This document shows positions 6,001 to 9,000 of a stretch of 64,000 bases of DNA, piece by piece. Position numbers: made by a program. Each line of letters starts with the position of its first letter. The first letter of the stretch is position 1. This DNA is from Escherichia coli (GTDB taxonomy: Bacteria > Pseudomonadota > Gammaproteobacteria > Enterobacterales > Enterobacteriaceae), in assembly GCF_003790525.1 (NCBI RefSeq), contig NZ_CP033635.1. The stretch is one strand, 5' to 3'.

Positions 6001-9000
6001 GGCGTTTTGCCGTTCGGCTGTTCTTGTGGTCAGATTAACAATCTGAAGAGTAAAGACGACAGTAATCTGTCTGTTATAGTGGCGATAAAAACACTGAATG
6101 TGCATCCTGTATGTGAAATCCGGTCATGTGGAGCAGTAAGCAATGACAGACATGCATGTTATATGTGAAGGGGGCCGGGAGACGACATAATCAGTATGGC
6201 TGTCATTCTGGTTGTAAAACGCGATCACTTTCCGGGGGTAAAAGATGATATGGAGGCTGACAAACGGTTTGCTTCGGATTGTCTTTTCTGGGGCCTGAAA
6301 TACGGGGGCAGAAAAATAATTCCAGAGTAAATCTGCTCTGTTTTTAGGACAGAAAACTCCATGCTGGCTGTAAAAGTGAGAAATCAACACCCAGTATGTA
6401 TGGAAGTCTGAAGATGTTGAGAATGTCGGTATGATACTATATACACATGTTTTTATTAAGTGTTATATACATATCTTTTTAAATAGATAATTCTACACAT
6501 ATTTTACTAAGTATTTTTACTAAGCATTTCAGTAAGTGTTATACACGTATTTTCTACTAAGTGTTTTACCAGACATACACGTGTTTTCATAAACAGCCCT
6601 ATAAGTGTTTTCATTAAGCATTGCTGTACACATTGCTTTGTCTGAAACTCATCCAGTTTAGTAAATCTTTACGTTAGCTAAAATCAGTTTAAAGCTGCTG
6701 TAAAACCTTTCTGTTTAAGCAATCAATCTGCTATTCGATTTTACTGATGTTGCGTTTAACCTTTTCTGAGATTTCGAGTTTCGACGTTAGCATGAGAAAA
6801 GTATCTTTACGCTAAATCAACCCGAACTTTCCTGAAGTAATCTGACGTTTTTTTCGATGTGCTTTCGACGATTCTGTTAAACGACTTTCTGGATGTTTTG
6901 ATAACAATCAGATTGAGGCATTAACGATTCCTGACGTTTTGCTTTTTCATGTAAGGTCATTGTTTTCGTCATGATGTGATTTTTCTTCTTGCATTGCGAA
7001 AGTGTGATGATTGGTTTTGGTTTTTTGATTCAGATGAGATTTACGTTATCGATGGTTAATCGTTTTTATGGTGCGTAGTGAAATGTAACATTTTCGGGAT
7101 GAGAAAATCGATTCTGATGGTGATGGGGATGATCGTGTTACGGCGTTATCTGTAAACAGGTTTTAAACGTGTCATTCGCATTCGTGATTGAGTAATGTGG
7201 TTAAGCTGTAGGTTTTGGTGTTGTTGTTGATTCACAGCGCCAGAAAGTGCTCTGATTGCGTTTCTGGTGTTTTGTTCGAATGTTCTGTGGATCCTTTTCC
7301 CTTCTGACTTTTCTCGTTGTCCATGTCGTTTTTAAATCCATTCGCTGTTCTTGAGTGTTTTTACCCTGCGTGTAGAATTATCTTTTCGTTCCGGGATGGT
7401 TTGTTCCGTTTCAATCACTCTTAATCAGAGAGTTGTAGCATTGCTCAATGCCGGATGCCGTAAAGTTTTACCGCAGTGATTAATGATGTGAAGTCAATCC
7501 AAATCAACGGAGATCTCTCATCATGAATCAACCAATACACAATGCTTACTGGTTATCCCGTTTTGACAGCCTTCTCAACAGTGCCCTGGCGCAACACCGT
7601 GCCGTTTCGTTAATCCGGGTGGATTTACGTTTTCCTGAGTATATGCCTGCCACCATTATGGATACCGATTTAGATTCAGCGGTGATTTCTCGTTTTTTCG
7701 AATCCCTGAAAGCCAAAATCCAGGCTTACCAGCGGAAAAAACGACGTGCCAACAAGCGTGTGCGTGCAACCACCCTGCATTATTTCTGGTGTCGGGAGTT
7801 TGGCAAGGAAAAAGGCAGGAAACATTATCACGTGATATTACTGCTCAACAAAGATACCTGGTGCTCGCCAGGGGATTTCACCGTTCCTTCTTCGCTGGCG
7901 ACACTGATCAAGCTGGCATGGTGTAGTGCTCTGCATCTTGAGCCCTGGCAGGGTAATGGACTGGTTCATTTTTCCAGGCGGACGCCTTTCCGTAAACCGA
8001 CATCATCTGATGCTCGCCCTTCTTCCGATGATACGCCTTTGTCGGGTGGATGTTCTGATACCAGGAAGGCTTCAGACAAAAAGCCGGGTGAAGCCGCTGT
8101 TCTCTGGATCAAGCGTGGTGATGTGGAAGCGCTGCAGAAAGCCCGGAACAGAGCCAGTTATCTCGTGAAATATGAGACGAAGCAGCATGACGGTTCCGGG
8201 CAACGTAATTATGGTTGCAGTCGTGGGCCGGGGCGTCTGCTGGATGGCAGGTGAGCCCTGTAAAACGACATCCGGTGCCTGAGCTTATGCTACAGGACGT
8301 TGGCTGACGCCCTTAGCTCGTTTTCTGAAAAAGTCGTCCTGAAGTCATGCAACGGTATTTTTCTCTGCTTTCGCTCCTGGAAACACTCCGTCGGTAAAAC
8401 CTTACTGTCCTGCTTAATGATGTGAACCGAAGTCAACGGAGAGCATTCATTCTGAACCTGCATCCGGTGTTCTGTCCCTTGTCGGTTACCTGATCTTCCC
8501 GTTCTGCCGCGGTTTTTCACTTATTCCATCAACCCCATACGCAAGCCATAACACGTCAGCGCATCCACGGGCAGGACGCGTTGTGGGCTGCGTATAACGG
8601 AACATATCTTATGAATGCTATCCCTTATTTCGACTATAGCCTTGCCCCCTTCTGGCCATCTTATCAGAACAAAATCATCGGCGTTCTCAACCGTGTGTTG
8701 CGCGAGCAGTCCTGCTCCCGAATACGGCGGATCCTGCTTCGTCTGCCGGGGGAACATGGCAACATCTTCAGCGACAGAAAAACCTGGTTCGGTATGGCCT
8801 TTATCGAAACCGTCAGTGCGCTGATGAATGCAACCCCCGGACGCGACCTCTGCTGGCTCCTGACACGTCATCCTGAAAAACCGGAATACCACGTGGTGCT
8901 GTGCGTCAGACAGGAATATTTCGACGGCCCTGAGCTGGACCGGTTGATTCTGGATGCCTGGAGCAACGTACTGGGCTTCGCGTCACCGGGTGAAGCAGCA

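What the first reader, a model, noticed from the sequence alone, without database searches (positions are those of the whole stretch)
7478..8450. Duplicated 5' leader motif with a lost start codon in the second Gp2-like copy
TTAATGATGTGAA...GTCAA...CAACGGAGA precedes both the 7523 gene (7486-7512) and the second gene (8412-8440). In the second copy the position aligned to the first gene's ATG reads ATT, so it either uses the downstream ATG at 8611 or is a pseudogene. This indicates a tandem duplication followed by decay of one copy.
Basis: seen in the sequence. Interest (0 to 1): 0.35.

Follow-up and report, generated by a model that had tools for sequence, protein, structure and literature searches.

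The report
Shared leader element, two island genes
Two neighbouring genes of an E. coli genomic island carry the same conserved ~70-base control sequence in front of them; the second gene is intact and starts at its own ATG further downstream, so nothing has decayed and the finding is a fairly ordinary, uncharacterised regulatory leader.

Summary
The repeat is real. About 45-70 nt upstream of the 243-aa YagK/YfjJ ('inovirus Gp2 family') gene (7458-7527) recurs 934 nt downstream (8392-8456), well above chance. The second gene (ATG 8611-9183, 190 aa) is not a pseudogene and has not lost a start codon. It is intact in 9/9 compared loci, has dN/dS of 0.03-0.29, and is annotated from this ATG in the RefSeq records inspected. 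Its N-terminus is colinear with that of gene 1. It is an ancient, very divergent YagK/YfjJ paralogue with an HUH-nuclease-like fold that lacks the first His and the catalytic Tyr. The two coding sequences share no DNA similarity, so this is not a recent tandem duplication. The shared block is under strong purifying selection: 2-8% divergence against 35-40% in the rest of the leader. It consists of a small palindrome (CGGTAA-N4-TTACCG), a 3-nt variable linker and a near-invariant core (TGATTAATGATGTGAA...TCAACGGAGA). The core is predicted to form the 5' arm of an RNA hairpin. In copy 1 the hairpin buries the SD and AUG of gene 1. In copy 2 it is a ~135-nt hairpin in the gene-2 leader. My best reading is a shared cis-regulatory leader; the mechanism is inferred, not shown. 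No Rfam family and no sigma-70 promoter match it. Interest is low to moderate.

The parts
7458..7473 (+). Copy 1 palindrome CCGTAAAGTTTTACCG (GTAA-N4-TTAC core); predicted small hairpin or possible operator
   Evidence: pattern search; predicted hairpin; conserved in 13 copy-1 variants.
7477..7514 (+). Copy 1 core TGATTAATGATGTGAAGTCAATCCAAATCAACGGAGA; predicted 5' arm of the hairpin plus the Shine-Dalgarno sequence of gene 1
   Evidence: repeat and its significance; invariant in 4 of 5 loci (one T-to-G change in CFT073) although the flank further upstream is visibly divergent. MFE -21.1 kcal/mol, z -3.45.
7515..7533 (+). 3' arm of the copy-1 hairpin (CAUCAUGAAUCA), containing the gene 1 start codon at 7523-7525
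   Evidence: The A and U of the AUG are paired with probability 1.00 and 0.85; the SD region is paired with mean probability 0.85.
7523..8254 (+). Gene 1, 243 aa, YagK/YfjJ ('inovirus Gp2 family') protein with HUH motif HYH and YLVKY
   Evidence: PF11726 E=1.2e-36; PF23343 E=1.1e-9; RefSeq annotation; motifs in the alignment.
8376..8391 (+). 5' part of the copy-2 block (CCTGGAAACACTCCGT). Homology between island types begins here, so it is a mosaic junction
   Evidence: 8% divergence; BLAST homology starts at about 8367-8376.
8392..8407 (+). Copy 2 palindrome CGGTAAAACCTTACTG (consensus CGGTAAAAACTTACCG)
   Evidence: helix 4, 96% of cells paired.
8411..8450 (+). Copy 2 core TGCTTAATGATGTGAACCGAAGTCAACGGAGAGCATTCAT; an orphan SD-like GGAG with no start codon after it
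   Evidence: 2-6% divergence; 105 metagenome loci hold the exact core; 116 occurrences were analysed when session loci are included; no conserved start.
8451..8595 (+). Variable part of the gene-2 leader. It contains the 3' arm of the long hairpin (about 8508-8535, CGGTTTTTCACTTATTCCATCAA). It is non-coding
   Evidence: indels; 35-40% divergence, but 18% in the 3' arm; hairpin.
8596..8610 (+). Gene 2's own ribosome-binding region (AACGGAACATATCTT; GGAG in most other loci)
   Evidence: 7% divergence.
8611..9183 (+). Gene 2, 190 aa; a divergent, probably catalytically inactive YagK/YfjJ paralogue; intact
9252..9488 (+). alpA-family HTH/excisionase-type gene; next gene of the conserved module and a candidate trans-acting factor (not tested)
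   Evidence: PF05930 E=2e-10; synteny.

Best explanation
The two motif copies are two instances of one conserved cis-regulatory leader element. The element belongs to the backbone module of a family of E. coli integrative islands. The module order is YagK/YfjJ gene, divergent YagK/YfjJ paralogue, alpA, UCP030791-like gene, with a convergent ProQ/FinO gene at the end. Each copy has a short palindrome (GTAA-N4-TTACCG), a 3-nt free linker and a near-invariant core (TGATTAATGATGTGAA ... TCAACGGAGA). I infer that the core acts mainly in the mRNA, as the 5' arm of a hairpin. In copy 1 the 3' arm is CAUCAUGAAUCA, so the hairpin sequesters the Shine-Dalgarno sequence and the AUG of gene 1, which would keep translation low until something opens the stem. 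In copy 2 the same 5' arm pairs with a segment about 100 nt downstream, giving a ~135-nt hairpin at the start of the gene 2-alpA transcription unit. Gene 2 is translated from its own SD and the ATG at 8611. The near-invariance of the 5' arm and of the palindrome, set against freely changing 3' partners, suggests that a sequence-specific factor also reads them. That factor could be a protein of the module or an RNA, and it would couple expression of the two paralogues. What is shown: the repeat, its conservation, the intactness and remote homology of gene 2, and the thermodynamic predictions. What is inferred: that the structures form in vivo, that they control translation or stability, and the identity of any trans factor.
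For: The repeat is significant.

Purifying selection: the copy-2 block differs by 2-8% between loci, against 35-40% for the rest of the leader and dS of 0.08-0.33 in gene 2. Copy 1 is almost unchanged in 13 variants. A block HMM finds only these two positions in about 1 Mb of island DNA.

Copy-1 RNA: MFE -21.1 kcal/mol, z -3.45, 0/200 shuffles as stable, with SD and AUG inside the stem.

Copy-2 hairpin: z -5.0 (L002), -5.3 (L011) and -3.0 (the type-B leader, which uses a different inner partner sequence). Across 53 distinct leaders the mean z is -3.0, and 75% are below -2. In the 9-sequence alignment, helix 5 has 18 pairs with 97.5% of cells paired. In the 53-leader alignment the pair equivalent to 66:162 reads C-G 19, U-G 20, U-A 11. 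Most one-sided changes are wobble-compatible on the + strand.

Orthologous YagK/YfjJ leaders in Morganellaceae have a different 9-12-bp stem (UUCUAGAUAUGA / UCAUGUCUAGAA) that also encloses the AUG, with z -5.4. There the arm complements that gene's own codons 2-4.

Homology between island types begins exactly at the 5' edge of the copy-2 block, as expected if it opens a functional unit.
Against: No experiment or transcript map was available, and the transcription start site is unknown. Covariation statistics are weak: 1 compensatory pair in the 9-sequence alignment, and 138/500 shuffles reach the observed score. Most stem positions never vary. The window's own copy-2 hairpin is not more stable than shuffles (z -0.14). 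Copy 2 folded locally has z about 0. Pairing of the AUG is not discriminating, because 29% of control ORF starts in the window have P(paired) >= 0.85. Only about half of the orthologous leaders tested show a start-occluding hairpin. Invariance of one arm fits protein-DNA recognition at least as well as RNA structure. In copy 2 the hairpin does not touch the gene 2 start, so its effect on gene 2 is unclear.
Confidence: 0.5

Rival explanations
1. The block works at the DNA level as a promoter/operator. The palindrome CGGTAA-N4-TTACCG and the invariant core would be binding sites for a dimeric regulator encoded in the module: AlpA, or the inactive HUH-fold gene 2 protein acting as a Rep-derived repressor. 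This would give common transcriptional control of gene 1 and of the gene 2-alpA unit.
For: The palindrome and core are invariant while a 3-nt linker between them varies freely. A palindrome of the same kind (CTGTAAGTTATTACCG) lies upstream of the alternative 188-aa gene 1, and the 10-mer ACATCATTAA occurs there in inverted orientation. The block sits at the 5' boundary of the conserved unit. The gene 2 model resembles origin-binding HUH domains (AAV Rep OBD, Foldseek probability 0.99, TM 0.42-0.44). Rep proteins commonly bind upstream of their own genes (established knowledge).
Against: No sigma-70-like -35/-10 pair lies in or near either block. The tool scan found none, and my reading by eye found only weak candidates with wrong spacing. 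The P. aeruginosa AlpA element GGGACG-N5-GGTA, which sits between -35 and -10 (PMC7969949), has no counterpart here. A DNA-only model does not explain why different 3' partner sequences keep complementarity to the core.
Confidence: 0.25
2. The hairpin-forming blocks are recognition or nick sites (origin- or oriT-like) for the HUH Rep-like YagK/YfjJ proteins on single-stranded DNA. They would be used for replication or mobilisation of the excised island. The two direct copies bracket gene 1.
For: Gene 1 has the HUH motif and a YxxKY motif, and it matches PF23343 Rep/G2P. The gene 2 model has an HUH/origin-binding fold. Hairpins with one conserved arm and strand-asymmetric G-T tolerance are typical of HUH substrates (established knowledge). 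The spacing between the copies is constant at 933-940 nt. An iteron-like 13-nt array lies about 900-1000 nt upstream of copy 1.
Against: There is no significant similarity to the M13 plus-strand origin. The unit was never seen outside the island module. The copy-1 hairpin's 3' arm is the gene's own start codon region, and in Morganellaceae it co-varies with codons 2-4, which fits an mRNA function better. No nicking data exist for any member of the family (literature searches).
Confidence: 0.1
3. This is the reader's reading: copy 2 is the remnant of a once-functional translation start of a duplicated gene, and the start was lost. On this view the block persists only by descent, or gene 2 is decaying.
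For: The frame from CTG 8452 is in phase with ATG 8611. It is open, with an in-frame GTG 44-48 codons upstream, in 18 of 53 distinct leaders. The orphan GGAG keeps the same spacing to CTG as gene 1's GGAG keeps to its ATG.
Against: Gene 2 is intact and under purifying selection. Protein homology to gene 1 starts at gene 2's Met1 region. The frame is closed or shifted in 35 of 53 leaders, and the indels are not multiples of three. The block is far better conserved than neutral sequence, so it is not a relic. Similarity beyond the block is not significant.
Confidence: 0.05

Closest known systems
Fold-back (start-codon/SD-occluding) mRNA leaders of mobile-element genes, e.g. IS10 transposase fold-back inhibition and the hok mRNA fbi/tac elements (from my own knowledge)
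   Same: An upstream segment of the leader is complementary to the translation initiation region of a mobile-element gene and is predicted to bury the SD and AUG (copy 1).
   Different: There is no evidence that only read-through transcripts carry the inhibitory arm. The same arm is reused in a second leader, where it pairs with a non-start segment. Nothing has been tested experimentally.
traJ leader / FinP antisense RNA / FinO system of F-like plasmids
   Same: The leader is predicted to have two stem-loops with the RBS in a stem, and a ProQ/FinO-family gene belongs to the same module.
   Different: No antisense promoter or terminator was found opposite the block. The ProQ/FinO gene is truncated or frameshifted in this window and in several loci. 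No Rfam FinP hit was found.
Rep-protein origins/operators upstream of rep genes (AAV RBE/RBE' and p5, geminivirus iterons plus hairpin, inovirus gpII origin)
   Same: HUH-fold proteins are encoded next to a conserved hairpin-forming sequence and a nearby repeat array.
   Different: There is no sequence similarity to the M13 origin. Gene 2 lacks the catalytic residues. No nick site has been defined.
Pseudomonas aeruginosa AlpA binding element and AlpA-dependent antitermination (PMC7969949, PMC9371919)
   Same: An AlpA-family gene lies in the module, and a conserved element sits at the head of the unit that contains it.
   Different: The published motif GGGACG-N5-GGTA between -35 and -10 is absent. 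No flanking sigma-70 promoter and no downstream intrinsic terminator was found.

Membership tests
YagK/YfjJ (Pfam PF11726, 'inovirus Gp2 family') - gene 1 | Match to PF11726 above the gathering score | tested here: met
   126.6 bits against a cut-off of 25.8, E=1.2e-36; also PF23343 at E=1.1e-9.
YagK/YfjJ (Pfam PF11726) - gene 2 | Match to PF11726 above the gathering score | tested here: not met
   11.7 bits against a cut-off of 25.8, E=0.26. Remote homology is nevertheless supported by hhalign (E=4e-5, probability 70%). It is also supported by homologues P0197 and P0201 (36% and 32% identical), which carry PF11726.
HUH endonuclease (Rep-like) - gene 2 | HUH metal-binding motif and catalytic Tyr (YxxK) | tested here: not met
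   Gene 2 has EYH in place of HYH, and SDFARD where the family has SYLxK. The fold is still HUH-like: AAV Rep OBD, Foldseek probability 0.99, TM 0.42-0.44, model pLDDT 80.
HUH endonuclease (Rep-like) - gene 1 | HUH motif and catalytic Tyr motif present | tested here: met
   HYHVILLL and SYLVKYETK are present in the alignment. Enzymatic activity was not tested.
Pseudogene (gene 2) | Disrupted frame, lost start, or relaxed selection (dN/dS near 1) | tested here: not met
   Intact ORFs in 9/9 loci; dN/dS 0.03-0.29; ATG and SD conserved; not flagged as a pseudogene in RefSeq.
Recent tandem gene duplication | DNA-level similarity of the two coding regions | tested here: not met
   The best CDS-to-CDS local score is 23, against 20.5 +/- 2.4 in shuffles. 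BLASTP identity is 21% over 75 aa, E=0.03.
Curated RNA family (Rfam 15) | Covariance-model hit at the gathering score or a low E-value | tested here: not met
   No hit in 7400-8650 at the gathering threshold or at E<=5.
Sigma-70 promoter within the block | -35 and -10 hexamers with 16-18 nt spacing | tested here: not met
   The scan finds none in 7440-7520 or 8370-8460. The nearest + strand site, at 7351-7378, is not conserved.
Structured cis-regulatory mRNA leader | Structure more stable than shuffles, and supported by covariation | tested here: inconclusive
   Stability is met: z -3.45 for copy 1, and mean z -3.0 over 53 copy-2 leaders. Covariation is weak, with 1-2 compensatory positions.
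AlpA-dependent promoter (P. aeruginosa type) | ABE GGGACG-N5-GGTA between -35 and -10, with an intrinsic terminator downstream | tested here: not met
   The motif is absent from both blocks when the sequence is read directly. No conserved terminator is present.

The most novel reading that the evidence does not exclude
The two hairpin-forming blocks may be the cognate DNA recognition or nick sites of the island's HUH (Rep-like) YagK/YfjJ proteins. Gene 1 would be the nuclease and the catalytically dead gene 2 protein an origin-binding partner. These widespread 'cryptic' E. coli islands would then carry a rolling-circle-type replication or mobilisation origin, and the two direct copies 934 nt apart would define a Rep-processed segment.
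Probability: 0.08. Interest if true: 0.7.

Novelty: new member of a known kind. Interest (0 to 1): 0.3.

Why it matters
The module (YagK/YfjJ gene, paralogue, alpA) forms the backbone of integrative islands. Parts of it matched 2,860 of 5,426 complete E. coli genomes, often in several copies per genome. Related islands in other Enterobacterales carry defence cargo next to it. None of its genes has a known function. A conserved two-copy leader element gives a concrete handle for asking how the module is switched on. It also corrects a tempting mis-annotation of gene 2 as a decayed duplicate. Apart from that, it is one more uncharacterised cis-regulatory leader in a mobile element.

Tried and rejected
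1. Coding extension of gene 2 up to the motif. Rejected: the window has a stop at 8491, and the frame is closed or shifted in 35/53 leaders.

2. Homology of the rest of the gene 2 leader to the 5' end of gene 1 (ATCAACC.ATAC.CAA). Not significant: score 17 against 16.3 +/- 2.3 in shuffles.

3. A sigma-70, sigma-54, sigma-28, sigma-E or antisense promoter inside the block. The tool scan and reading by eye gave no convincing match. A weak minus-strand TTCACA-N16-TAAGTT/TAAAAC candidate fails the usual criteria.

4. Similarity to the M13 gpII origin (GTTCTTTAATAGTGGAC). Not significant.

5. The P. aeruginosa AlpA binding element. Absent.

6. Rfam, at gathering and permissive thresholds. Nothing found.

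7. Further copies of the block elsewhere in the window or in about 1 Mb of related loci. None found. The Chryseobacterium hit L005 is a chance match.

8. E. coli K-12 as a source of transcript data. K-12 yfjJ and the CP4-6 region lack the block. yagJ has the same length as gene 1 but is unrelated.

9. Start-codon pairing probability as evidence. A control set shows it is not discriminating.

10. Literature on YagK/YfjJ or inovirus Gp2 family proteins. No functional study was found.
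Full report
**Context.** The window is E. coli chromosome. Region 6300-10300 is 98-99% identical to many complete genomes, and parts of it match 2,860 of 5,426 genomes. RefSeq annotates the stretch in this order:
- 'inovirus Gp2 family protein' (window 7523-8254);
- 'hypothetical protein' (8611-9183);
- an AlpA-type HTH regulator (9252-9488);
- a 'YagK/YfjJ domain-containing' or UCP030791-like protein (9689-10237);
- a convergent ProQ/FinO gene.

The region lies in a CP4-like island that also carries CbtA/YeeU, antirestriction, RadC, DUF932 and GTPase genes. Pfam confirms gene 1 (PF11726 E=1.2e-36; PF23343 Rep/G2P E=1.1e-9), AlpA and ProQ. It gives nothing significant for gene 2.

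**Observation.** TTAATGATGTGAA is exact at 7480-7492 and 8414-8426. (A/G)TCAACGGAGA follows at 7502-7513 and 8431-8442. The repeat finder extends the similarity to 7460-7527 against 8394-8456, with one 5-nt indel.
- Local alignment of the two upstream regions scores 34. Dinucleotide shuffles give 18.6 +/- 2.2, and none of 1000 reach 34.
The coding regions show no DNA similarity above chance.
- Gene 1's ATG aligns with CTG 8452-8454, and ATT lies one codon upstream. There is no canonical start there. The frame stops at TGA 8491-8493.

**Gene 2 is not a decayed copy.**
- Its ORF is intact in all nine loci compared, with dN/dS 0.03-0.29.
- Its family consists of 190-191-aa proteins with thousands of members, almost all from E. 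coli.
- All RefSeq records inspected start it at the ATG equivalent to 8611.
- Profile-profile comparison aligns gene 1 residues 7-145 with gene 2 residues 15-129 (hhalign E=4e-5, probability 70%). The alignment includes RVDLRFP/RILLRLP and HYHVILLL/EYHVVLCV, so the N-termini are colinear.
- An exhaustive HMMER search found two distant homologues, 36% and 32% identical. Both carry PF11726 and lie in related modules; in L015 the gene-2-like gene directly follows a canonical YagK/YfjJ gene, and in both loci a UCP030791 gene follows it.
- An AlphaFold model (pLDDT 80, pTM 0.79) matches HUH origin-binding/nuclease domains best: AAV Rep OBD with Foldseek probability 0.99 and TM 0.42-0.44, then RAYT, IS200 TnpA and RepB.
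- The gene 2 subfamily lacks the first His of the HUH motif and the Tyr of SYLxK. It is probably a non-catalytic paralogue.
- The duplication is therefore ancient, and both copies have been retained.

**The sequence between the motif and the ATG at 8611 is non-coding.** Leaders from different islands differ by indels of 1, 12, 13 and 14 nt. The frame is open back to the motif in only 18 of 53 distinct leaders. Similarity of this stretch to the 5' end of gene 1 is at chance level.

**The shared block is functional sequence.**
- Across nine gene 2 leaders, mean pairwise divergence is 2-8% in the block (palindrome, core, GGAGA). The rest of the leader diverges by 35-40%, and dS in gene 2 is 0.08-0.33.
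- Two very different leader bodies (types A and B) share the block, the 3'-arm island and the SD/ATG region.
- Copy 1 is nearly unchanged in 13 variants; the main change is one T-to-G in the core.
- A metagenome scan returned 105 loci holding the exact copy-2 core. Of 89 loci with enough upstream DNA, 23 have copy 1 plus the 243-aa gene 1 at 933-940 nt. Another 63 have a different 188-aa YagK/YfjJ gene with a third leader type at about 656 nt.
- Homology between the two island types begins exactly at the 5' edge of the copy-2 block, at window ~8367-8376.
- A block HMM finds no further copies in about 1 Mb of related DNA.
- The third leader type shares only a similar palindrome (CTGTAAGTTATTACCG), a TGATTATGAGCGAAAG stretch, and an inverted ACATCATTAA.

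**Anatomy and likely mechanism.** Each block has a palindrome (CCGTAAAGTTTTACCG in copy 1, CGGTAAAAACTTACCG consensus in copy 2), three freely varying bases, and then TGATTAATGATGTGAA...TCAACGGAGA.

*Copy 1.* Folded as RNA, copy 1 (7456-7540) gives -21.1 kcal/mol with z -3.45. It forms a small hairpin on the palindrome and a second hairpin. In the second hairpin UGAUUAAUGAUG pairs with CAUCAUGAAUCA, the region containing the gene 1 AUG, and GGAG is also paired.

*Copy 2.* Here the same 5' arm pairs with CRGUUCUUCACUUAUUCCAUCAA about 100 nt downstream. Its z-scores are:
- -5.0 in L002 and -5.3 in L011;
- -3.0 in L009, the type-B leader, where a different inner sequence complements GUCAACGGAGAUC;
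- mean -3.0 over 53 distinct leaders, with 75% below -2.

One stem position shows C-G, U-G and U-A (19, 20 and 11 sequences). Most single changes are wobble-compatible on the + strand.

*Orthologues.* YagK/YfjJ leaders from Morganellaceae have a different, perfect 9-12-bp stem (UUCUAGAUAUGA / UCAUGUCUAGAA) that encloses the AUG and complements that gene's own codons 2-4, with z -5.4.

*Inference.* I infer a structured mRNA leader whose invariant arm and palindrome are additionally read by a sequence-specific factor.

**Caveats.**
- Covariation support is statistically weak.
- The window's own copy-2 hairpin is no better than shuffles (z -0.14).
- AUG pairing probability is not discriminating.
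- Only about half of the orthologous leaders show start occlusion.
- The transcription start is unknown.

**Rivals.**
- *DNA operator/promoter.* It is favoured by the invariance, the free linker and the junction position. However, no sigma-70 promoter is present, and the published AlpA element is absent.
- *HUH recognition/nick site.* It is suggested by the Rep-like proteins, the hairpins and an iteron-like array upstream. But there is no similarity to the M13 origin, and the 3' arm of copy 1 is the gene's own start region.

**Comparison with known systems.** The element works most like fold-back, start-occluding leaders of mobile-element genes. It resembles the traJ/FinP/FinO arrangement only loosely. 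It is not in Rfam, and I found no functional literature on the protein family.

**Verdict.** This is a real, conserved but ordinary cis-regulatory leader shared by two ancient paralogues. The decay interpretation is wrong. Interest is 0.3. The most novel reading not excluded, a Rep-type origin in these islands, has a probability of about 0.08.

Noticed in passing
window 6430-6640 (array at 6502-6567): An AT-rich, T-skewed non-coding region about 900-1000 nt upstream of gene 1 holds a 13-nt tandem array, TTTTACTAAGTAT x5.2, plus looser copies. It looks iteron-like. It recurs upstream of copy 1 in most 243-aa-type loci but not in 188-aa-type loci.
   Followed up: partly
window 6700-6750: A weak third partial copy of the leader (GTAAAACCTTTCTGT ... 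TTACTGATGT). It is conserved in L012 and L017 but was not detected by the block HMM.
   Followed up: partly
window ~8367-8376: Homology between islands carrying the 243-aa gene 1 and those carrying the 188-aa gene 1 starts exactly at the 5' edge of the copy-2 block. Everything upstream is unrelated, so this is a mosaic or cassette-like junction.
   Followed up: yes
window 8290-8520 (-); L009 5087-5236, L017 2719-2877, L018 2601-2750: A minus-strand ORF overlaps copy 2. In type-B leaders RefSeq annotates 49-52-aa minus-strand 'hypothetical proteins' inside the gene 2 leader. These are probably spurious calls in a structured non-coding region.
   Followed up: no
window 10255-10557 (-): The ProQ/FinO-family gene of the module is only 100 aa here and is flagged as frameshifted in the nearly identical RefSeq locus. 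It is intact in some other islands.
   Followed up: no
L127/L129/L135 (Morganellaceae, Providencia), about -40 to +12 of the YagK/YfjJ gene: Orthologous genes have a perfect 9-12-bp leader hairpin that pairs with the start codon and codons 2-4. A conserved TTTTTAAC/TTTTTAC motif lies about 50 nt upstream of the ATG. The downstream cargo is made of defence genes: NACHT, KAP/Qat, TIR, WYL, and restriction-modification-type genes (HsdR-like helicase, N6/N4 methyltransferase).
   Followed up: partly
window 55969-56163 (-) and 27512-27628 (-): Rfam gathering-level hits to Ysr276 (antisense sRNA family) and to the ALIL pseudoknot (IS3 frameshift element). Neither is related to this finding.
   Followed up: no
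window 8596-8602: Gene 2's Shine-Dalgarno sequence reads AACGGAA in this window, whereas several other islands have AACGGAG. The window's copy-2 block also carries several lineage-specific changes that weaken the predicted hairpin.
   Followed up: partly
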